From Chrysomallon squamiferum (lineage: Eukaryota > Animalia > Mollusca): a stretch of 64,000 bases of DNA. The DNA is taken from contig CM022679.1 in the NCBI GenBank assembly GCA_012295275.1, positions 5,022,001-5,086,000 of the forward strand, read 5' to 3'. The translations under genes were made by a program, and so were the position numbers. The notes under the pieces are model-generated. The model had not been told where the DNA came from, searched no databases, and worked only from the letters and a program-made list of their open reading frames with translations. This document shows positions 2,148 through 56,418 of the stretch, in pieces (position 1 is the stretch's first letter; every line of letters begins with the position of its first letter).

Positions 2148-16592
<14,445 letters not shown>

Positions 16593-17158
16593 GTCAATTA
16601 TTAATAATAGTATCTGTTGTGAAAAAAGCGCTGTATAAACAAAGTGTTTTGTGCTATGGAGCTGAAGAACTACGTCTGAACTCTATAACGCCATAGCAAT
16701 TTCGTCGTTCACTGTTAAATAAAGAACGCAGAAGCTTGCACTGTCAGCCATTTATGATTTTCGATAACACATTTTCATGACGTTGGAGCCATGACGTCAG
16801 GACAGGTTTTCACCTACATCATTAGATGTAATGTATATATATATGCAAAACTTTAATCTGAACGCAAGTTATGTGAAAAGAATGAAACTACAAAAGTTAT
16901 TAATTTTTTCTAACGATATCTCATCGTGTTGCTATGATATGGAAAATGCAGGATTAAAGAAAACGGACAAATTTTCCTTGACAGGGAACTGATTAAATAG
17001 AAAGAGAATTTATACATATACAAAAATAATTGAACAAAACAATTAAAAAAATGAACTGAATGAACAATAACTGAATTAATCTTAAGTTTACAGAAAGGGA
17101 AACTGAAAACATATTAAGTAAACGAATATAAACGGCCCCTGAGAGTTTATTTGCCACT
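16593..17158. promoter_or_regulatory. Putative bidirectional promoter between head-to-head TMC-A and TMC-B
   Basis: Divergent ATGs at 16592 (-) and 17159 (+). Locally CpG-containing, with a full CRE palindrome TGACGTCA at 16792-16799 and a half site TGACGT at 16778. Confidence 0.55.
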
Positions 17159-26773
<9,615 letters not shown>

Positions 26774-27943
26774 CAGACTAAATACCTTGAACACTGGGAA
26801 CACTGAAGTGAGCTCAAAGGAAATACAGAACCATTTAGTGGAGTAGTGATGTGATCTCAAAACACTGAATATAATACAAGCATCTTGAACACTTTTACGA
26901 ACAATATTATTACATGTGAAGTGATCAGTTTTAGATATAAAATTATTATATGTAAAATGATCACTTTTAGATTTAAAGTTTCTATATCTGAAGTGATCGT
27001 TTTTGGAAATAAAATGATTGTGTGAGACCACAGTTTGATATAAAATGGTCCCATACTGATATAATATGATTATATGTGAAGCATTATACTTGTGAAAACC
27101 ATTCTTAACAACCTGCATATGGAAAATTATGATTTTTAAATACAAATGTGAAAATATGACTGTATATCATTTATATGTGAACCTGTTTCATTATACATCA
27201 GAATGAAAAAACCCCAAAACATCAAACAAAACATACTGACTTAAGTTTTTATTATATAAAATGGTGATTTTCCTTTTTCTTTTCTTTTTTTTTTTTGTAT
27301 TTCTGGATGTAAATTTCTTTAATGAATATCAGTTTGTAGGAAATAAAGTTACTTCATTTATCTATATCTGAAAAATATTATCAGAATTTTATATGATGAA
27401 AATTAGACACCTTTCAATATTCTCTATGCAAAATACAGTGATTTTTTTCACATAAAGATGAATAACTATTAAAAACAATTTTTATAATCATACATTTGAA
27501 GAAAGTTTTTGTATAGCTGCAGTTCAAAATATAACTGTCACACTGAATCTAATGATAAATAACAACATTTATTTTTATTTTCTATATGTATAACAGTCAA
27601 GACATTTTTTTTCTAGTTTTCCTGTTATTCTTATTCTACTAGATTAAAATATAAAAATAAAAAAAAACATATTTGTTAATTATTGTTTGTTTGTTTGTTT
27701 CATTTTATTATTATTATTATTGTGTGTGTGTGTGTGTGTGTGTGTTGTGATTTCAGTAGGAATTTTATTGATCATAAAGTTTAAGCTGCAATGTAATTTT
27801 AATGTAGAATAATAATTATGATAAAGCACATACTCATTAGAATACAATAACAGTTGAAAACTAATTGAATGTCTAATTCATATAAACAATAGGCATCAAT
27901 AAATTTAAATAACAACAACAACAACAACAACAATAACAATAAC

Positions 27944-28423: not shown

Positions 28424-29246
28424 TTAATTTGCTTTGATCCTTTGGCATCTTGCTCGCGTTTGCATTCAAAATAAAAATTATAAAATAATGGTTTAAAAAG
28501 AAACTCATGGGGATACGGCTCTAAATCTTTAGACGTTTAAGTAGTGGATTACTACATTTCTAACATAAAATTAAAAGTCAGATTTGTAGGTGTGTGTGTG
28601 TGGGGGGATCTCTTTTCCTTTCTCTCAGTTTTGTTTGTTTCTTTTTTTAACACTCACCTGTAATCTTTCTTTGGATGCTAAGTTTTTCAAGAGAGCACCC
28701 CCATATGCCCAGTATCCCCCACAACAAGACGGAAATACGTCAGCCGATAAATTTGCTGTATTTGCTAAGATTACGAAACCGTACATAATATTAAACATAA
28801 AAGTAATTGGTGAATTTCTTGTTTTTTTCTTTCTTTCTTTCTTCTTGTTTGCTTCTTGTGTTGTTTTATTTGTCACTGTGTTTTCTTTAACTGTTACTTA
28901 TTATTTTAAAATAAATATTTGCATTAAATTTTGCACATTTTGCACTGTTTATTACTTAGTCATAACTAAATAACTAGAAAACAGTGTAAGAATTAAACTC
29001 TTGATATCAAACAAAATAAAAACAAAGAAAACCCACGTAACTTCTATATTATTTTATCATCGAACAATATCAAGAAAATTTTGACATTATCTTGATTATA
29101 GAAATATTTTTAAATTGATATTCTTAAACGGAATCACAATAAAAATAAATTTATACACATATCAGAGAATGATAATGTTACAGAAGATTTTAACGCGTTA
29201 AAGTTTCAACGCAAAAAACACAGTTCCTTGTTGGCGTAGTTGTGTC

Positions 29247-29301
29247 TATATAAGGACGACAAAAATGGAATGACGTAAGCCTGAGGGTTCTTTTTATAAA
29301 A
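29247..29301 (+). promoter_or_regulatory. TATA-box promoter with ATF/CRE-like site, hairpin unit 1
   Basis: TATATAAG 29247-29254, TGACGTAA 29271-29278, TATAAAA 29295-29301. All are conserved in copy 2 (34962, 34986, 35010). Confidence 0.55.
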
Positions 29302-29687
29302 CAATTGAACATCCACTACCCCGTTGGTTTATATCCGGGATGTGGAAAAACGGGACGCTGATTAAACAGCAAATCTCAAGGAGTGTTTCTTTGTTCACTG
29401 GATTCTGCATCCTGCATCTTGGTGCTGTGTTTGGTTGGAAATCGTCTTCAAAACTGATTGTTGATGATCCGTTCCGAGGTTCATTACTACGGTTAGAGGT
29501 CGGGACACCCCGAACTTTCCAGAACGTGGCCGAAGGGAGGATCTTCTGCAATCAAAAGCGAAGACGACTCCAGCATTCTGCAGCTCTCAACGATGACAGG
29601 ATGAAATCCAGAGACCGAGAGAAACAAAAAATAAATAAAATAAAAATATCCCCACCCCAAAACCCCGGCCCTTTTCAGGGCCACCAA
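29280..29687 (+). ncRNA. Candidate long-hairpin RNA gene 1 ending in a histone-type 3' stem-loop
   Basis: Rod-like foldback 29384-29626 around an axis at ~29506 (TGTTTCT/AGAAACA, CTGGATT/AATCCAG, CATCCTG/CAGGATG, TCGTCTTC/GAAGACGA, TGATTG/CAATCA, GATCC/GGATC, TCGGG-acac-CCCGA), followed by GGCCCTTTTCAGGGCC-ACCA. Transcription is inferred, not shown. Confidence 0.55.
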
Positions 29688-29699
29688 ATCTTAAGAAAA
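29667..29699 (+). terminator. Replication-dependent histone mRNA 3' stem-loop plus purine-rich downstream element
   Basis: AAAACCCC-GGCCCT-TTTC-AGGGCC-ACCA matches the SLBP-binding consensus (6-bp stem, UUUC loop, AC-rich flanks). AAGAAAA lies ~10 nt downstream. Confidence 0.85.
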
Positions 29700-31149
29700 C
29701 GTATTTTCAAACAACTGCTGTTAAATAGTAATAAAATAAAAAGAATAATAATCTGTTTATGATAATAAAATTAATTATGCTACATAAACAAACAAATAAA
29801 TAAAATAAAATGAATGATAATTCGTACTAATAATACCTAATAATAACAATGTCAAATTTCATAAGCTAAATATGATTTAATTAGAACAGTTTATGATAAA
29901 TGTAACATTCAAATATACTATTTACTGAAATTAAATAAATTACTCGTATGTAAATAAAAAAAAAAAATAATAAAAAAAAAAAAAAAATAAATTATATTAC
30001 TGAATAAAATTAGTTATTTATGATATTTTTGTCGTTTTCTTTTACAGAAGCAATAGGAATGAAAAAGAAACATGAACTGCTTTCTTCTTTTCTTTTATTC
30101 TTTCTTTGACTGTTTTTTTTTTGTTGTTGTTTATTTTGTGGCGGTTTTGTGGGTTTTTTGATAGATAGATGGGACTGATGTAAATTGTTCATTATTCGAA
30201 TTAGTATGCACACTTCAAATTAAAAAACACTTCACTTAAAAAACTTGTCTGTTGATATCTTGATGAATTTGAAATAACCAGTTTAAATAATAATAGTAAC
30301 AACAACAATAATAATAATAATAAATTATTTAAAACAAAAGTATTAATCTGGATCTATTTGTTTCCTATTGTTTTTTCATCACATGTAAAACTAAATTTTG
30401 TAGTAAATGATACAGACTGAGTAAGGTTTAGAAAACGCGTCACTGTTTTGAATGATTACGTCACAAATTCATTAGCTTAATGCAACCGTCAAGTGGTTGT
30501 GCTAGTGTGTGCTTTGTTTATTTGTTTTTCTATTTACAGTTTCAATATATGCACAAAAGGTATGTACATTTCATATTCCAGATTCTTAATGATATATAAG
30601 GCATCTTAAAACATTGCTAAAAAAACCAGCATTGATTTTAAAATCTATATTAAATATGCAGTCAGTTATAAATTTTGTTTCAACCTGGTGTTTTTTTAAT
30701 TGGCGTCAAGGAAATATTGACATCATGCGGATAAAAATATAAATACTGAAAACAGAAACATATAACAAATATACACATATATCTGACATAAAGTATTATT
30801 ACGGTACCACATTCTAAAACTGTAAAGTTTCGAAGACAAAAACACAACTCCATCACGGATGGCGACGTCACGAGAACGTTTGCCGCTTGTTTACTAATTA
30901 CGTCACATGTTTGTGCTTCTATGGTCAATTCATCGGCGTGTATATAAGACAGAACTGTTAGCCAGGCAATTTAGATTCCCGTGCCCACATCTGTGCCTTG
31001 AGAAGCCCCTCAGATGAATGAGAAAATGTATATCCTGTTTCTTTGAACGTCAAATACTGGCGGCTGAAGTGGCAGACCTGAGAAACCTCGAAAGAATGAG
31101 AAAATGTAATTCTTTGTTCTCAAGTACTGGCGACTCGAGAGACACACCT

Positions 31150-32150
31150 AAAGAAGCTGAAGATTCCGGTGCGCCTAGCAAAGATAATATACGAACCGGT
31201 GGATGAATCCTCGGCAGACTTACACTGGCGACTTAAACTGAAGAAACGAAGCTGAAGATTCCGGTACGCCTAGGCAAAGATAATATACACACCGGTGGAT
31301 GAACCCTCGGCAGACCTACATTGCAGGCTTAAACTGAAGAAACGATGCTGAACATTCCGGTGCGCATAGTAAGGCCTATATGCGCACCGGAATGTTCAGT
31401 TTTGTTTCTTCAATTTAAGCCTCCAATGTAGTCTCCCGAAGATTCATCCATCGGTGTGTACATTATCAATGCGCACCGGTGGATGAACCCTCGGCAGACT
31501 TACATTGGAGGCTTAAATTGAACAAACGAAGCTGAACATTCCTGTGCGCATAGTAAGGCCTATATGCGCACCGGAATGTTCAGTTTTGTTTGTTCAGTCT
31601 AAGTCTCCAGTGTAGTCTCCCGAGGGTTCATCCATCGGTGTGCGCACTGGAATCTTCAGCTTTGTTTCTTCATTCTAAGCCTCCAGTGTAGTCTCCCGAG
31701 GGTTCATCCATCGGCGCATATTATCTATCCGGACAGGTGAATGAGCCCTCGGCTGGAGGCTGAAGTTGAAGAAACGAAGCTGAAGATTCCGATGAATGAA
31801 CCCACGGCAGACATTCATTGGAGACTGAAGTTGAAGAAACGAAGCTGAAGATTCCGGTGAATGAACCCACGGCAGACATTCATTGGAGACTTAGATCGTA
31901 GAAATGAGGCTGAAGATTCCGGTGCGCATAGCAAAGATAATATGCGCACCGGCGGATGAACCCACGGCAGACATTCATTGGAGGCTGAAGTTGAAGAAAC
32001 GAAGCTGAAGATTCCGGTGAATGAACCCACGGCAGACATTCATTGGAGACTTAAGTTGAAGAAACGAGGCTGAAGATTCCGGTGAGCGTAGCAAAGATAA
32101 TATACACACCGGCGGATGAACCCTCGGCGGACATACACTGGAGGCTGAGA
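31150..32150. repeat. Array of ~61/88-bp units in direct and inverted orientation (two ~180-nt hairpins at 31279-31467 and 31471-31643)
   Basis: Unit core GAAGAAACGAAGCTGAAGATTCCGGTG(..)ATGAACCC.CGGCAGAC.T.CA.TGGAG. Perfect 21-bp inverted repeat CTGAACATTCCGGTGCGCATA (31348-31368) / TATGCGCACCGGAATGTTCAG (31379-31399). Confidence 0.92.
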
Positions 32151-32189
32151 AAACAACAAAGAGTCGAACTCTTCAAGAAGATATTTGTT

Positions 32190-32925
32190 TATCTGTGGGG
32201 AGACGGAGAAGATGTAGCGGAAAACTGGTAAAGCACTAGCAACAACCCAGGAACTGTGAAACACTCCAAAAAGACATTCGTGCCAAAGGGAGAGACAGTT
32301 TTCACCAGCATCAACGATGCTTCAACAGTCAAAATATTTGCCACTGCATCCACTTCGTCTGTGGGGAGACGGAGAAGATGCAGCGGAAAAGTGGAAAAGC
32401 ACTAGCAACAACCCAGGAACTGTGAAAAACTCCAAAAAGACATTCGTGCCAAAGGGAGAGACAGTTTTCACCAGCATCAACGATGCTTCAACAGTCAAAA
32501 TATGTGCAGGCCACTGCATCCACTTCGTCTGTGGGGAGACGGAGAAGATGCAGCGGAAAAGTGGAAAAGCACTAGCAACAACCCAGGAACTGTGAAAAAC
32601 TCCAAAAAGACATTAGCGCCAAAGGGAGAGACAGTTTTCACCAGCATCAACTATGTCCATATGCAGGACATTGCTTCCAGTTTGTCAGTGGGGAGACAGA
32701 GAAGATACAGATAAACAGTGGCAAGGCACTAGCAACAGCCCGTGAATTGTGAAACACTCCAGAAAGATATGTTACACCAGAGGGGGAGACAGTTTTCAGC
32801 ACCATGAACGATTCTTCAACAGTCAGTGTCCATATGCAGGACATTGCTTCCAGTTTGTCAGTGGGGAGACAGAGGAGATATAGATGAAATGGGTGAAGGC
32901 ATAGCAAGAAACCTCTAATTGTGAA
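32190..32925 (+). repeat. ~170-bp tandem repeat, ~4.3 copies
   Basis: GTGGGGAGAC.GAGAAGAT recurs at ~32195, 32361, 32531, 32688 and 32861. Unit lengths (~158-171) are mostly not multiples of 3. Confidence 0.92.
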
Positions 32926-33889
32926 ATTGTTAATGAACATTAAATATAATATCGCGATGAACATTGTAAAATTTCGCGAATTTAAATTGTAATGGAAATT
33001 AAAAATCTGTATAATAAAATAATTATATAAAATGCATTTTATTTGTTATTATTTTATTTATTTATTTATTAATTATATATTTCTTTAAATTTTACTTTTT
33101 CTTTTGTTACATATCTAGAGATGATTCATGGAATATCGCTGTTTATATTTAATAAGTTTATTTTTAAAGATCCAATTCTGCAAGGAAAACAGTGGAACTA
33201 TAATTAATTCTTGCATACATACATACATACATATAAATCTTCAATATATATAGTTTACGGAGCAAGAAATACAGAGATTACCACTTAACAATTATTGGTT
33301 TATGGAGTATTTTGATATAAAACAAAAAACTTAGAAAAAGTAAAATATATATTAATTACATTTGTCAGTGTAGTTGACAGAAATTATTAGTGGGTGTGAC
33401 ACTGTAACTTTGACTGTTGTTTTTTTTCTTCTTTTTTAATTCCTCATTAAATGGTACTTTAGGTTACTCAACTTTCGTTAACAGCTAATTTGTTAATTAA
33501 ATTTATTCAAAATAAATAAATGAATATGTTTATAATTACATATTCTGTATTAGTCCTTGTTGAGTATACAGTCTTTGTTAAGCAGAAATCATATTTTATT
33601 GATACTGTAATATGATCCAAGGTACATAAATATATTGTTATTCACTGGTTGCATGCATATATATCAAGTAATAAGTGGTATTTCTCAAATCACACAAGTG
33701 GTGGAGTAATTATATTCTGTTACTGGCTGGCAACATTTAGAAAGTTCACACACTCTGATTAGCTCCTTTCTGTCTCTTACGAATAGCTCGTATTGAAATG
33801 TATCTATTTGTTTTTTAGTACGAATGTATGTACGTATGCATATGTGTATGTATTTAGGTAAGAATATTCTCTGTATTATGTACATCTAT

Positions 33890-33985
33890 TTAGATCCTGA
33901 ACAAGGACAATATCCAGGAACATGTAAACTGAATTGGCACAGGATAACATCAGAATCCGCTCACGAGACTCGAACCTGTGGAGAA
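33890..33985 (-). mobile_element. Possible tRNA-SINE fragment
   Basis: B-box GGTTCGAGTC on the minus strand (GACTCGAACC at ~33967-33976) in a short GC-richer patch. Confidence 0.25.
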
Positions 33986-34994
33986 TGAAATCAGTGTCAC
34001 AAAAGGTTTAAAGTGAAAGTATCAGCCGTGGTTCTGTTGTCCCATGTCAAAAGATCTCTTGGCACATTCTGACAGTTTCACATCAACCAATGTTCCTGTA
34101 AGTTATTCAAGGAAAGGAAGGTGAGAAAGAAGAAAAGAAAGTAGAAATAAAACTAATAAAGATAAAAACAAGGAAAGAATAAGGAACTAGAAGTAAAATA
34201 AATAGAAAAATTGAGAATCAACGTATCAAGTAAAAATGTTTAATCAGAAAATAACAATGTTTATATGTATGTATGTATGTATGTATGTCTATGTATGTAT
34301 TTATGCTTTCTTCTGTCGTTCATGAATAAAGGAGATATCAAACGTACAGAGTATGCATCAAAATGTTTGACGATAAGACCCCCCTTATCCCCAGCTTTCC
34401 CCCGCCACCTAACAAAAGTAAATATGATTACGTCAGACCCTAAATTCGCTGGATTTACTAACATTACAGAACCGTGCACAAATTAAAAACAAAATTACAT
34501 TTTTTTTGCACTTTAATTCTTCTTCTTCTTAGTTTTTTTTTTTCTTGTCTCGTTCTTCTTTAATAATTAATTATTATTTTTGAATCAATGTATTCATTGA
34601 ACAATTCACATTTTATACTGTTTATTACTTAGTCGTAACTAAATAACTAGAAAACACTGTCAGAAGTGAACTGGTTGTATTAAACAGAATAAAAACAAAG
34701 AAAACCACTATAAATTCTGTATTATTTTATCTTTCTTTGAATAATATCTCGAAAGTTTCGACATTATCTTGATTACAGAAATATTTTTATAATGTATTCT
34801 TAAACAGAATCACATCAAAAATACTTATATACACATATCAGAGAATGATAATATTACAGAAGATTTTAACGCGAAAAAACTTGAACGGAAAAAAACACAA
34901 GTCCTTGTTGTCGACGCCATTGCTAAACTCAAGGTGACTTCTTTTACGTCCGCTTTCTGTCTATATAAGGACGACAAAAATGGAATGACGTAAG

Positions 34995-35402
34995 CCTGAG
35001 GGTTCTTTTTATAAAACAATTGAACATCCACTACCCCGTCGATTTATATCCGGGATGTGGAAAAACAAGACGCTGACTAAACAGCTAATCTCCAGGAGTG
35101 TTTCTTTGTTCACTGGATCCTGCATCCTGCATCTTGGTGCTGTGTTTGGTTGGAAATCGTCTTCAAAACTGATTGTTGATGATCCACTCCGGGGTTCATT
35201 ACTACGGTTAGAGGTCGGGACACCCCGAACTTTCCAGAACGTGGCCGAAGGGAGGATCTTCTGCAATCAAAAGCGAAAACGACTCAAGCATTCTGCAGCT
35301 CTCAACGATGTCAGGATGGAATCCAGTGACCAAATGAAACAAAAAATAAATAAAACAAAAATATTCCCACCCCAAAACCCCGGCCCTTTTCAGGGCCACC
35401 AA
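34995..35402 (+). ncRNA. Candidate long-hairpin RNA gene 2 ending in a histone-type 3' stem-loop
   Basis: Foldback 35099-35341 (TCACTGGAT/ATCCAGTGA, CATCCTG/CAGGATG, TGATTG/CAATCA, TCGGG/CCCGA) with the same TATA/CRE promoter and stem-loop at 35382-35397. Confidence 0.55.
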
Positions 35403-35415
35403 ATCTTAAGAAAGT
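35382..35415 (+). terminator. Histone mRNA 3' stem-loop plus downstream element (copy 2)
   Basis: GGCCCTTTTCAGGGCC-ACCA followed by TAAGAAAGT, which is close to the invertebrate HDE consensus CAAGAAAGA. Confidence 0.85.
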
Positions 35416-35637
35416 GTCTTTTCATGCAATTGCTAATCCAGTGTAATCATAGTTAAATAATAATAATAAAAATAAAATAATAAATAATAAAATATTTATG
35501 ATAAAAAAATATTACTTCTACTAATAGTTATAATAACAAATAATATAGTTAGAATAATAAAGATAATTATACTACTAAATAAAGAAAGAAATAATAGTAA
35601 ATATTACGTTTTAATAATAATAATAATAATAATAATA

Positions 35638-35679
<42 letters not shown>

Positions 35680-37526
35680 GGAACAATAAAATAAAGACGA
35701 AACTGAAGAAATTAAGTAATTTAAAAAATTCACATATATATTGACAAGTAATTATGATATTATCATCATTTATCACTTAATAATTAATTATATCACAGAA
35801 AATCGTTACTTGACTAGAAGATTAAACAGACAAAAAAGCAACAATTACAAAATGAATATAAACTCAAGTTATAGGACTGAAATATGGAAAGCAAGTAACC
35901 AAGTAAATAAATGACCATACAAGTAAATTATGTAAGTAAGTAAATAAATAAATAATGTAAATAAATAACCTAATAAACAAAGAACAAGAAAGTATAAACA
36001 AACAAACAAATAAATAACTAAAATTATAATAAAAATAATAATATAAGAAAATTGTAATAAAAATAATTTTAAAAATAAACAAAAGAAATTATTCAAATTT
36101 ACTAAAGCACTTTCATTATATCATGCATAAATATAAATGATTTTTATATTATATACCTAAATAAAAAAATAAAATAAAATAAATTAAAATAAATAAATTT
36201 AAAAAAAATCAACTTTCATTTCTTACTGTGTTCTAAAATACTGATGATCAATGTTTTGTTGATTTTTGGGATTGTTTAAATCAGTTATCTCCATAATAGA
36301 ATAATACACATAATCAACATGTAATAAGTAGTATGTAATTCTAGAAAAAGAAAATAATGTCAAAATATATTATTATAATTATTTTTATTATGTTGACAAT
36401 TACGAGACACAGTATATGGTTCAAGGGAGATCACTCCCAATATATTTCGTTTTCATAATGAATTATTCTCCTTGCATCTATTTTTAGTAAAATATTTGCT
36501 ATTTTTGCTATTAACTGCTACGATGAAGCATTTCATTCACAGAGATACTTCTATTTTAGGGAAATTTACTTTGTTTTCAATACTACTACTGCTAATAATA
36601 AATAAATAAATAACTGATGAAATTAAGTCATTCAGTCTGTTTCACAAAGACTACCAGCAAAAGAGACTGGATGAATCATTCACTGTGATTAATAAGTACG
36701 GTTTATATCATTCTAGTTATTTATAATTATTACCTTCTTTTTATTTATATATTTTCTTTATTTTTCAAATTTCTTTAATTTTTTTTTTTTCATTTAATTA
36801 ATTTATCATGCATTTATTTAGATATTTTTTTTTAAGAAGAAGAGAAATAAATATCAAAATGTTTAATTATATTTACAACTTCTTTTGATTTTGGTTGCTA
36901 ATTTTGTAATTTATTTAATAGTTTATTTTATTGTAGTAGTAGTAGTAGTAGTAATAATAGTAGAGGATTATTAAGAACAACTATTATTTTGGGAAATCTT
37001 TCTCTCTAGTATTACAATATAAGTTGAACTTATATCAATGGTTCTTCCCTAAATCTTTACCTGACAAATGCTGATTAATGTACAGTAAAATAAGTAAAAA
37101 ATAAGTTTAATAAGACATAATATTTTATTTCTTAAAGTGTCAAATGATACAATGTAAATAACAAAGTATATCACATTAAGGGAAAGAAAACTTTGTTTAC
37201 AAAGAATAATCTTGTCATTTGTCACAGTTATTATGACTAGAATGTGGTTACTCAGTCAGTAGATATTTATATTATACGTACTGATTAGAAAAACAAGTAA
37301 ACATTTGAATCATTTTGCTTTGTGTCTTTTTCAGGATATGTTCTTAGATTATGTGGCATGTATGTTTTCCTTCTCAGATTTGGTAAGATTCAGTCATTTA
37401 TTCATATAGGTCTTTGTAATTTATTTGATTTATCTTTTTATGTTTTTTAGACAATTACATATATCATATTCAAAGAGCAGAAGAAGGACATCTGTGTATT
37501 TTAGTTACAGGACAATGATGAAATAA

Positions 37527-40567: not shown

Positions 40568-40811
40568 AAGCCAAAATAAAATAAAATTAATAAAAATAAT
40601 AACCAGTCTGTTTTATTTCTAATTGTCAGTTATATATATATTTTTTTTAAATAAAAAAAAAAAAAAAAAAAATTAAAAAAAAAAAAATTAATTTAAAAAA
40701 AAAAAAAAAAAAAAAAATAATAATAATAATGTAAATAAATAAATAAATTAATAAATAATAATAATAATAATAATAAATAATAATAATAATAATGTTTTCT
40801 CTTGAACGTTT

Positions 40812-55411
<14,600 letters not shown>

Positions 55412-56418
55412 CTGATATTAAGTTATGTAACTGTCCTCTCTGTCTGTCTACAGAACCCTCAGCTGAAATAACAAATAAATAAATAAATAAATAAATAAAT
55501 AAGTTTCGTAGATTGCTTTACTGCCTCTGTTAATGGTTTCGTACGCTTGACAACAAATATAATAAAAAAATTATATACGTAGATCAAAAATGCTATAAAA
55601 ATCTCGTAAAGCACCTTAGGTTTAATATGTAACAGTTTCAAGGCCGGGTCAAAGGTGTCAGCCACATATAAAGGCCTTTTCTTTTCTTTTTTTTACAAAA
55701 TATCAAAATATACACTCCATTAGTGCTGACTAAAACTCAATATTTGGAAGGCCATAAGACTTAAGACTTGGTTCGATGTGACCTGTCACAAATTGTGAAG
55801 TTTTCAGAATAAAGATATCTCAAGCTCAATCAGAAAAAAAGATATAAAAAAAAAGATTAAAATTAAATTTACAATTCTATTATCCTGTCTTATTTGTACA
55901 CTTGAGATATTATTCAGACAGAAAAAAATACAAATAAAATAAAAAAATAAAAAAATAAAAAAAATAAAAATCTAAATTGATAATTTATTTCTCTGTCGTT
56001 GCTTTTCTTGGCCTATTGATGCCTCAGTCTAAAATTAACGATTCTTTACACGAGAAATTTATTTTTATTTCTTGCTGTCGCGAATGGCTGGAGATGAATG
56101 AACCTGATAAAATGGTTAAAAAAAAAAAAACACCTCTGGATTTGCTATTTCTGTTTCTCTTGTTGGGAAGTACATAATACCTCCGATAGAAAAAAAAAAA
56201 AAAAAAAATAAATAAATAATAATAATAATAAGAAAGGATAAATGTTTCGAGCGGATTTTCTTTTTGCCTTTGTTGTTTAGGGCTTAGCCGAGTTAATGGA
56301 TTGCTGCGAACATGATTCTAAAATAGCCAGGTTGGCATGTTATTCTACTCTGAAACGATAAATGACATCGTGGCAAGAAAAAGAAAAAAACTCGAGTCAC
56401 AGATAAACAGAGGGAGAG

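What the first reader, a model, noticed from the sequence alone, without database searches (positions are those of the whole stretch)
31150..32150. Nested repeat array forming long hairpins, with a compensatory base-pair swap
Seen: ~61/88-bp units in both orientations form two ~180-nt hairpins (31279-31467 and 31471-31643) plus a third reverse arm (~31645-31725) that could pair with flanking forward units. At the equivalent position hairpin 1 has G31339:C31408 and hairpin 2 has C31523:G31592, a double compensatory change. Forward units also have internal stems (CCGGTGAATG/CATTCATTGG; CCGGTGCGCATA/TATGCGCACCGG). Established: tandem-repeat hairpin loci of this type (Drosophila hpRNAs such as hp-CG4068) are Dicer substrates. 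Inference: an hpRNA or young miRNA cluster. Arm-to-arm gene conversion could also explain the swap.
Basis: partly seen in the sequence, partly recalled or inferred. Interest (0 to 1): 0.8.

Follow-up and report, generated by a model that had tools for sequence, protein, structure and literature searches.

The report
Snail long-hairpin RNA gene trio
In a snail genome, this repeat array is found in RNA and is predicted to fold into a Y of three ~80-base-pair helices; it shares its promoter region with two neighbouring hairpin RNA genes that end like histone mRNAs, so it likely belongs to an undescribed family of double-stranded-RNA genes in an animal group reported to lack the enzymes that process fly hairpin RNAs.

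Summary
The hairpins and the G:C/C:G swap are real. The array runs F-F-F-R-F-R-R-F×6. The reverse unit at 31641-31726 is predicted to pair with 31182-31269, enclosing both hairpins in a Y of about 238 bp. The hairpin loops are the unit's own 12-bp mini-palindrome, which points to a fold-back (template-switch) origin. The swap alone is not beyond chance (P≈0.11), and G·U against A·C mismatches (7:5) show no strand bias. The host is a gastropod; two papers report that molluscs lack Dicer-2 and siRNA Argonaute, so a fly-type hpRNA is unlikely, and the stems are too long for canonical microRNAs. New here: the upstream region is homologous (E=1e-7) to the promoters of two flanking ~420-nt non-coding units. 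These fold into ~250-nt rods, are conserved from TATA to a perfect histone stem-loop (5% divergence against 19-32% in the flanks) and show no histone frame. The three units are the strongest non-microsatellite folds in the window. RNA contigs cover the array's ends and one splices it out as an intron. Best reading (0.35): a long-hairpin RNA trimmed by microRNA-type Dicer; neutral by-product 0.30. No small-RNA data or target. The scan's earlier notes hold no look-alike sequence.

The parts
29240..29706 (+). Unit A: TATATAAG (29247), non-coding body with a ~250-nt imperfect rod (29384-29626), histone-type stem-loop 29667-29682 followed by ACCA and a purine-rich box
   Evidence: (z -5.8)
30508..30871 (+). 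Upstream block homologous and collinear with the upstream regions of units A and B
   Evidence: nhmmer hit 30699-30871, E=1.1e-7, next best 0.38; local alignments including 30508-30620
30518..30559 (+). Exon a of a spliced non-coding host transcript (5' end unknown); donor AAAAG|GTATGT
   Evidence: one RNA contig of run X2 joins it to exon b, 40 letters on the short side; splice sites
30864..30948 (+). Two CRE-like motifs (30864, 30898) and TATATAAG (30941): predicted core promoter of the array unit (H); motif names recalled
30990..31146 (+). Two degenerate ~70-nt units with 15-16-bp hairpins
31150..31272 (+). Partial unit F0 and forward unit F1; F1 (31182-31269) is the predicted 5' arm of the outer 77-bp stem
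31279..31467 (+). Hairpin 1: F2 (31279-31368), 10-nt loop, R1 (31379-31467); G31339:C31408
31468..31643 (+). Hairpin 2: F3 (31468-31552), 10-nt loop, R2 (31563-31643); C31523:G31592; 184-bp tandem duplicate of hairpin 1
31641..31726 (+). Reverse unit R3, predicted 3' arm of the outer stem (pairs with F1 in 3'-truncated folds, partly with F9 in the full-length fold)
31730..32150 (+). Forward units F4-F9 (65/95-nt spacing, 160-nt higher-order repeat) with short 10-21-bp hairpins
32192..32926 (+). Second, unrelated array of ~4.4 copies of a 157-173-nt unit; weakly structured overall, one ~17-bp hairpin across two junctions
33013..33018 (+). First AATAAA after the arrays: predicted poly(A) signal of unit H
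33894..34120 (+). Exon b of the host transcript (acceptor TTTAG|, donor |GTGAGA); the intron 30560-33893 holds the whole array
34955..35421 (+). Unit B: paralogue of A (TATATAAG 34962, rod ~35099-35341, histone-type stem-loop 35382-35397), inside the intron 34121-35798
35799..35920 (+). Exon c of the host transcript (3' end unknown)
   Evidence: one RNA contig of run X1 joins exon b to it, 28 letters on the short side

Best explanation
The array is the body of one of three neighbouring non-coding units that share a homologous upstream region with a TATA box; it is present in RNA and is predicted to fold into a Y of three ~80-bp helices, which the snail's single microRNA-type Dicer likely trims into a few ~22-nt guide RNAs for the microRNA Argonaute. 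Shown: the repeat order, the duplexes, the promoter homology, presence in RNA contigs, the intronic position, and no sign of coding. Inferred origin: the forward unit carries a 12-bp mini-palindrome at its junction; a fold-back or template switch there copied upstream units in reverse and turned that palindrome into the hairpin apex; a 184-bp tandem duplication then made two hairpins inside one outer stem. Inferred function: transcription of the + strand from the CRE/TATA promoter or from the host transcript, co-transcriptional zipping, some ADAR editing, and slow end-by-end cutting by Drosha and Dicer-1 instead of processive Dicer-2 dicing. It would work like a fly hpRNA or a mouse-oocyte hairpin without being a member of the fly class. 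The target is unknown.
For: Duplexes: 77+85+76 bp in 31182-31726. Of 491 tiles of 260 nt, the four lowest folding energies are this array, the fifth is unit A and the seventh unit B; the sixth is a microsatellite tile with z -2.5. Two unrelated bodies (A/B against H show no similarity) behind one promoter type thus both form long duplexes. Promoter homology E=1.1e-7. A and B differ at 25 of 467 positions from TATA to the histone-type end, against 92 of 487 upstream and 29 of 92 downstream, so the family looks like constrained genes. RNA contigs of X1, X2, X3 and X4 lie on the unit, and run X6 of another study (kind not on record) covers 31797-32014 and 32471-32856 with 0-2 differences per contig. 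GT..AG joints, TATA boxes and histone stem-loops all point to the + strand. PMC12479628 (passages) proposes that any small RNA from long dsRNA in molluscs comes from distributive Dicer cutting and loads into the miRNA Argonaute.
Against: No small-RNA data were available, so dicing is untested. The same paper found Dicer-type read pairs in molluscs at least fivefold lower than in species with siRNAs. The mismatch pattern of the hairpins looks neutral: 7 distinct G·U against 5 A·C, swap P≈0.11, and hairpin 1 folds better on the minus strand (-137 against -126 kcal/mol). A well-paired long stem without an internal bulge was poorly cropped by Microprocessor in PMC12553114 (passage), and the two inner hairpins start from a junction, not from single-stranded flanks. 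No complementary site above shuffle level in 6,332 nt of TMC exons of the window. RNA contigs start upstream of the TATA box (30619, 30824), so use of that TATA is not shown and the RNA may be intronic. With simple scoring the H upstream tile ranks first among non-self tiles for B but below AT-rich tiles for A.
Confidence: 0.35

Rival explanations
1. Unselected by-product. The array is an unstable tandem repeat inside a transcribed intron or a decaying paralogue; its mini-palindrome invites fold-back replication, short template switches explain the swap, and the duplex RNA is simply edited or degraded.
For: The hairpin loops equal the unit's junction palindrome. Template switching can make stems and compensatory changes in one event (PMC8794818, abstract and passages). 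Neutral-looking mismatches and swap P≈0.11. In the window's haplotype hairpin 1 carries three pair-breaking letters (31346, 31440, 31442) where run X5 and hairpin 2 have the pairing letter. A loose end in X1 suggests a different number of reverse units.
Against: It does not explain why the strongest non-microsatellite folds of 64 kb all follow the same promoter type. The swap is bracketed at 5 nt on both sides by unhomogenised positions, and five older differences between forward and reverse arms persist, so arm-to-arm conversion is not general.
Confidence: 0.3
2. Shape-based function. The RNA is an inducible long dsRNA that is edited by ADAR and occupies or tunes dsRNA-binding proteins (Dicer, ADAR, RIG-I-like sensors), like C. 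elegans rncs-1; its sequence hardly matters.
For: Unrelated bodies share only their duplex nature. CRE-like motifs cluster here: 8 of 21 TGACGT/ACGTCA sites of the window lie in 28700-35000. One candidate edit, A31222G, in two RNA runs and not in X5. rncs-1 is a ~300-bp edited stem-loop induced by starvation (PMC3409262, PMC4408787, passages).
Against: A31222G cannot be told from an allele: X1 and X5 also differ at 30884, and no DNA of the same individual is on hand. The longest uninterrupted run is 27 bp. Induction is untested.
Confidence: 0.2
3. piRNA precursor. The spliced non-coding host and its repeat-rich units feed the Piwi pathway as single-stranded precursors, and the hairpins are incidental.
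For: Molluscs have abundant somatic and gonadal piRNAs (PMC12479628, abstract and passages); a spliced, non-coding, repeat-laden transcript fits.
Against: piRNAs do not come from dsRNA (same paper); nothing here explains the duplexes or the histone-type ends; no transposon match was seen in the ORF scan.
Confidence: 0.1
4. Drosophila-type hpRNA processed by Dicer-2/Loqs-PD into phased siRNAs for AGO2, or a canonical young miRNA cluster.
For: The architecture resembles fly hpRNAs: long inverted repeat, local tandem duplication of an arm, spliced transcript (PMC10317233, passages).
Against: Dicer-2 and siAgo reported absent in Mollusca; stems more than twice the canonical length; no Rfam family at gathering score; 0 matches for six 10-11-nt arm motifs in 9 supplementary files of the oyster miRNA catalogue.
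Confidence: 0.05

Closest known systems
Drosophila hairpin RNAs (hp-CG4068, hp-mir-997-1, de novo D. simulans hpRNAs; PMC10317233 and PMC12553114, passages)
   Same: Pol II-type non-coding locus with long imperfect inverted repeats, local tandem duplication of arms, splicing and fast turnover.
   Different: They depend on Dicer-2 and have arms homologous to a target gene. The host here is a mollusc, reported to lack Dicer-2 and siAgo, and no target was found among the window's TMC exons.
C. elegans rncs-1 (PMC3409262, PMC4408787, passages)
   Same: Stand-alone long non-coding stem-loop of comparable duplex length (~300 bp against ~238 bp) in an animal with one Dicer; edited and partly diced.
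   Different: rncs-1 is one rod with shown editing and starvation control. This RNA is a Y built from tandem units, has paralogues with other bodies, and neither editing nor regulation is shown.
Giant invertebrate miRNA hairpins (mir-989, mir-12; PMC12553114, abstract and passages)
   Same: Long, well-paired hairpins that the miRNA machinery can mature when a bulge lies near the dicing site.
   Different: [quoted passage not shown]
Replication-dependent histone mRNA 3' end (Rfam RF00032), for units A and B
   Same: Perfect 6-bp stem and 4-nt loop followed by ACCA and a purine-rich box; TATA promoter; no intron.
   Different: No histone frame was found, the body is a ~250-nt rod, and unit H (the finding itself) has no such stem-loop.
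Template-switch-born hairpins (PMC8794818, abstract and passages)
   Same: An existing short stem-loop is extended into a long stem in one event, and compensatory changes can appear at once.
   Different: An origin mechanism, not a function; here whole repeat units were inverted and then duplicated.

Membership tests
Drosophila-type hpRNA | Long intramolecular inverted repeat in a transcribed non-coding RNA | tested here: met
   duplexes; RNA contigs on the unit; strand and ends not shown by contigs
Drosophila-type hpRNA | Dicer-2 and siRNA Argonaute available to process it | not testable with these tools
   No genome held. Papers report both lost in Mollusca; host assigned to gastropods from one TMC exon
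Drosophila-type hpRNA | Phased ~21-nt siRNAs from the arms | not testable with these tools
   No small-RNA run among the 6 runs listed
Drosophila-type hpRNA | Arms homologous to a target gene | tested here: inconclusive
   Best 21-nt complementarity 16-17.5 against shuffle maxima 17-18.5, over 39 exon stretches (6,332 nt) of the window only; no other locus in the window; transcriptome not searchable
Canonical miRNA cluster | 30-35-bp stems with single-stranded flanks | tested here: not met
   76-85-bp stems starting from a three-way junction; downstream hairpins of about 21 bp or less; criterion from PMC12553114 abstract
Canonical miRNA cluster | Match to a described miRNA family | tested here: not met
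   No miRNA family at gathering score; best sub-threshold hit plant MIR840, 59.5 bits against 150; 0 motif hits in the oyster catalogue supplements
rncs-1-like long dsRNA | A-to-I editing of the duplex | tested here: inconclusive
   One candidate, A31222G, in X1 and X2, not in X5; alleles not excluded; the inner hairpins have almost no RNA contig cover
rncs-1-like long dsRNA | Expression regulated by nutrition or stress | not testable with these tools
   Only contigs; depth does not rank expression
Abundant dispersed satellite or transposon subterminal repeat | Many copies across the genome | tested here: inconclusive
   No second locus in 64 kb; X5 contigs over the array have depths 65-196 against about 60-80 in some neighbouring bins, a weak hint of one locus since depth is no copy number; genome not held
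Replication-dependent histone gene (units A, B) | 3' stem-loop with downstream purine-rich element | tested here: met
   RF00032 36.4 bits (A) and 33.0 bits (B; gathering score 34); AAGAAA 10 nt after the stem (element consensus recalled)
Replication-dependent histone gene (units A, B) | Histone open reading frame | tested here: not met
   No Pfam family at cut-off in 8 ORFs of A and B; no protein homologue of the longest ORF; 3 synonymous against 15 non-synonymous codon changes in that frame

The most novel reading that the evidence does not exclude
Molluscs, having lost Dicer-2, run a family of long-hairpin RNA genes built on histone-gene hardware: a shared CRE/TATA promoter drives interchangeable double-stranded bodies, some cut off by the histone stem-loop/U7 route instead of polyadenylation. 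This array is a young member whose duplex was assembled by fold-back replication and now feeds guide RNAs to a slicing microRNA Argonaute.
Probability: 0.2. Interest if true: 0.8.

Novelty: new variant of a known kind. Interest (0 to 1): 0.5.

Why it matters
Two recent surveys conclude that molluscs make no endogenous siRNAs, yet long-dsRNA knockdowns are widely reported in them and the fate of long dsRNA in mollusc cells is called open (PMC12479628, passages). A natural, transcribed locus with about 240 bp of predicted duplex and two constrained hairpin paralogues makes that question testable: map small RNAs and edits on three short genes. Units A and B also offer a non-histone RNA with a full histone-type 3' end. 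My one literature search for that combination listed two papers, on U7 repression of human LTR12/lincRNAs and on histone genes, and an earlier search listed one unrelated paper; neither was restricted to molluscs. If the array proves neutral, it is still a clean record of how a mini-palindrome in a tandem repeat grows into long hairpins with apparent compensatory changes.

Tried and rejected
Protein coding: 36 ORFs of 28500-36000 gave no Pfam family at its cut-off (36 of the 87 listed). No frame of A/B, hairpin 1/2 or the 160-nt repeat has more synonymous than non-synonymous changes. The spliced host product has no ATG ORF above 31 aa. Homologues: the 18-nt unit motif gave 117 single matches in metagenome contigs, none extending beyond 30 nt; 0 matches in viral contigs for two motifs; 2 single matches in bacterial genomes, taken as chance and not followed. 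No look-alike in the scan's notes by sequence or nearby. Targets among the flanking TMC genes: none above shuffles. Similarity between the bodies of A, H and the 166-nt array: none, all P>0.06. Hammerhead ribozyme: the unit holds CTGAAGA, but no ribozyme family appeared at E≤5. G·U strand bias as proof of RNA selection: 7:5 in H; 8:4 in A but 5:6 in B. A second double change shared by both hairpins (column 62) lies in the perfect run next to the loop and is explained by inheritance or loop-primed copying, so it was not counted. Lack of RNA contig cover over 31304-31621 resembles the drop-out described for fly hpRNA arms, but X5 has a hole nearby too and holes prove nothing. X6 has no contig on A or B; its library kind is unknown, so nothing is drawn from that. 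X5 contigs are deeper over A/B (about 360-1090) than over unique flanks, which may mean more family members, but depth is no copy number. No paper on non-coding RNA of this snail group was found (8 listed, none relevant by title and abstract start).

Full report
Setting. The window is AT-rich animal DNA with many microsatellites; no whole genome is held. A coding exon at 47842-48096 is 77% identical to a TMC7-like protein of the gastropod Gigantopelta aegis, the only hit among 187 candidates at E≤1e-8. tblastn with that protein outlines three TMC genes. The finding lies between the converging 3' ends of two of them. I treat the host as a gastropod on this one exon; notes on the same genome also call it a snail (unchecked).

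The observation. Both hairpins exist at the stated coordinates with 10-nt loops. Hairpin 1 has 79 Watson-Crick pairs, 3 G·U and 4 A·C; hairpin 2 has 71, 7 and 1. They are one 184-bp duplication with 13 differences in 169 nt. The swap G31339:C31408 against C31523:G31592 is the only WC-to-WC double change among 69 consensus pairs. With all units turned to one orientation, the order is F0 F1 F2 R1 F3 R2 R3 F4-F9. Folding ever longer 5' pieces, as a rough stand-in for co-transcriptional folding, gives F2:R1, then F3:R2, then F1:R3 (77 bp) around both: a Y of about 238 bp in 545 nt. At full length R3 splits between F1 and F9. The longest uninterrupted run is 27 bp. A second, unrelated array of ~166-nt units follows at 32192-32926 and is weakly structured.

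How much the swap says. Placing 6 and 7 changes at random on the two arms gives at least one WC-to-WC swap in 11% of trials. Counting shared mismatches once, there are 7 G·U and 5 A·C, so no strand bias. Hairpin 2 folds better on + and hairpin 1 on −. Three of hairpin 1's mismatches are absent from a contig of run X5, which carries the same letters as hairpin 2 there; this may be an ancestral allele, conversion or a merged contig. In favour of RNA-level constraint, the swap is flanked at 5 nt on both sides by positions where the arms still differ, and five older forward/reverse differences (three G·U, one C·C, one bulge) persist, so conversion would need a tract of at most 9 nt. The swap is compatible with selection but does not show it.

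Origin. The forward junction holds a 12-bp palindrome with a 10-nt loop. The apex of each long hairpin is this palindrome, and the inverted blocks end inside earlier copies of it. That is the pattern expected from template switching, which can create stems and compensatory changes in one event (PMC8794818, abstract and passages). The order of events (fold-back, then duplication) is my inference.

Surroundings. Two 1.1-kb duplicates flank the array (28736-29788 and 34429-35509, 81% identical). Each has TATATAAG, a ~420-nt body and a perfect histone 3' stem-loop followed by ACCA and AAGAAA. The body folds into a ~250-nt imperfect rod (z -5.8 over 100 shuffles; B scores alike on both strands). 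A and B differ at 25 of 467 positions from TATA to the downstream box, 92 of 487 upstream and 29 of 92 downstream (limits set at those features after seeing the profile; gene conversion could also give this). Of 12 differences in the rod, 6-7 fall in the 30% unpaired positions and 2-5 break a pair, which is weak. They do not look coding. A profile of the A/B upstream regions finds one other place in the window, 30699-30871, directly before the array's CRE-like motifs and TATATAAG (E=1.1e-7; next 0.38), with a collinear block at 30508-30620. A simpler control is mixed: that tile is the best non-self tile for B but is beaten by AT-rich tiles for A. The bodies of A/B and H share no detectable sequence. 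Among 491 tiles of 260 nt, ranks 1-4 in folding energy are H, rank 5 is A and rank 7 is B. z-scores were computed for the top 45 only; other tiles with z ≤ -5.7 (2341, 6111, 49661) are AT-rich and overlap simple or tandem repeats. As A and B are one event, this is two independent duplex bodies behind one promoter type.

Transcription. Six runs hold part of 30900-33000: four RNA runs of one study and two of unrecorded kind from two others. All are contigs, so strand, ends and level are not shown. X1 covers 30619-31303, 31622-31714, 31778-31872 and parts of the 166-nt array; X2, X3 and X4 cover smaller parts; X6 covers 31797-32014 and 32471-32856. X1 has no contig in 7 of 30 bins, among them 28751-29252 and 34273-34774, while X5 covers 29 of 30, which argues against plain DNA carry-over but is only a hint. 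One X2 contig joins 30559 to 33894 and one X1 contig joins 34120 to 35799, both GT..AG on +: H and B lie in introns of a spliced non-coding transcript. Each joint rests on one contig, laid at 85% likeness, the second with only 28 letters on its short side. An X1 contig on 35037-35277 carries A-type letters at the four differences listed, so the A/B family is in RNA too. X1 contigs begin upstream of the TATA at 30941, so independent initiation there is predicted, not shown. A31222G occurs in X1 and X2 but not X5; it may be an edit or an allele.

Which machinery. Fly hpRNAs need Dicer-2 (PMC12553114, passages; PMC10317233, passages). PMC11114477 (abstract and passages) reports loss of DICER2 in Trochozoa and of siAGO in Mollusca. 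PMC12479628 (abstract and passages) finds no endo-siRNA pathway in molluscs and suggests distributive Dicer cutting into the miRNA Argonaute, or editing, as the fate of long dsRNA. I could not check this species' genes. Canonical miRNA stems are 30-35 bp; these are 76-85 bp, match no Rfam family at threshold and none of six arm motifs occurs in the oyster catalogue's nine supplementary files (PMC4138081, supplements searched only). No target was found in the window's TMC exons. The closest single-Dicer precedent I read is rncs-1, a ~300-bp stem-loop that is edited and partly diced (PMC3409262, PMC4408787, passages). The mouse-oocyte comparison rests on a passage of PMC12479628.

Verdict. I commit to a long-hairpin RNA gene trimmed by the miRNA-type enzymes (0.35), ahead of a neutral fold-back by-product (0.30), a shape-based dsRNA ligand (0.20), a piRNA precursor (0.10) and the fly-type or canonical miRNA reading (0.05). 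It is not filed as an hpRNA or miRNA cluster. The scan's notes hold no look-alike sequence. One note on another genome describes histone-type end signals on presumed non-coding transcripts (e1-8619291), and two on this genome describe miRNA-like arrays; all are unchecked. Interest 0.5: a real and testable oddity, with function unproven.

Noticed in passing
window 29240-29706 and 34955-35421: Two paralogous ~420-nt non-coding units: TATA box, ~250-nt rod, perfect histone stem-loop and downstream purine box, no histone frame; conserved between TATA and the 3' box; family present in RNA contigs. They merit a finding of their own.
   Followed up: partly
window 3100-17800 (-), 17100-26800 (+), 40800-56000 (-): Cluster of three TMC7-like channel genes; the third is about 60-90% identical to the Gigantopelta protein over most exons, the other two about 35-70%. 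Outer limits are approximate.
   Followed up: partly
window 30518-30559, 33894-34120, 35799-35920: Spliced non-coding host transcript with short exons; exon b holds a reverse B-box-like motif near 33966, possibly a tRNA-derived SINE piece (motif recalled).
   Followed up: partly
window 30619-30852 and 31049-31117: RNA contigs of X1 match these stretches at 85-96% and, at 30853, run on into other sequence, suggesting further loci with the same upstream block and other bodies.
   Followed up: no
window 32335-32405, 32655-32735: In the 166-nt array the inner stem around GTGGGG changes on both sides between early and late copies (C:G to T:A) while the outer stem is lost.
   Followed up: partly
window 31789-31821, 31854-31886, 32014-32046: Downstream units F5, F6 and F8 gained changes that close a 10-bp stem absent in F1-F3, slightly stronger on +.
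   Followed up: partly
window 53675-53756: tRNA-Ser(AGA) gene on +, opposite the third TMC gene.
   Followed up: no
window 10087-11050: GC-richer stretch with short ORFs that read like a broken hAT/SCAND3-type transposase (impression from the translations, not searched).
   Followed up: no
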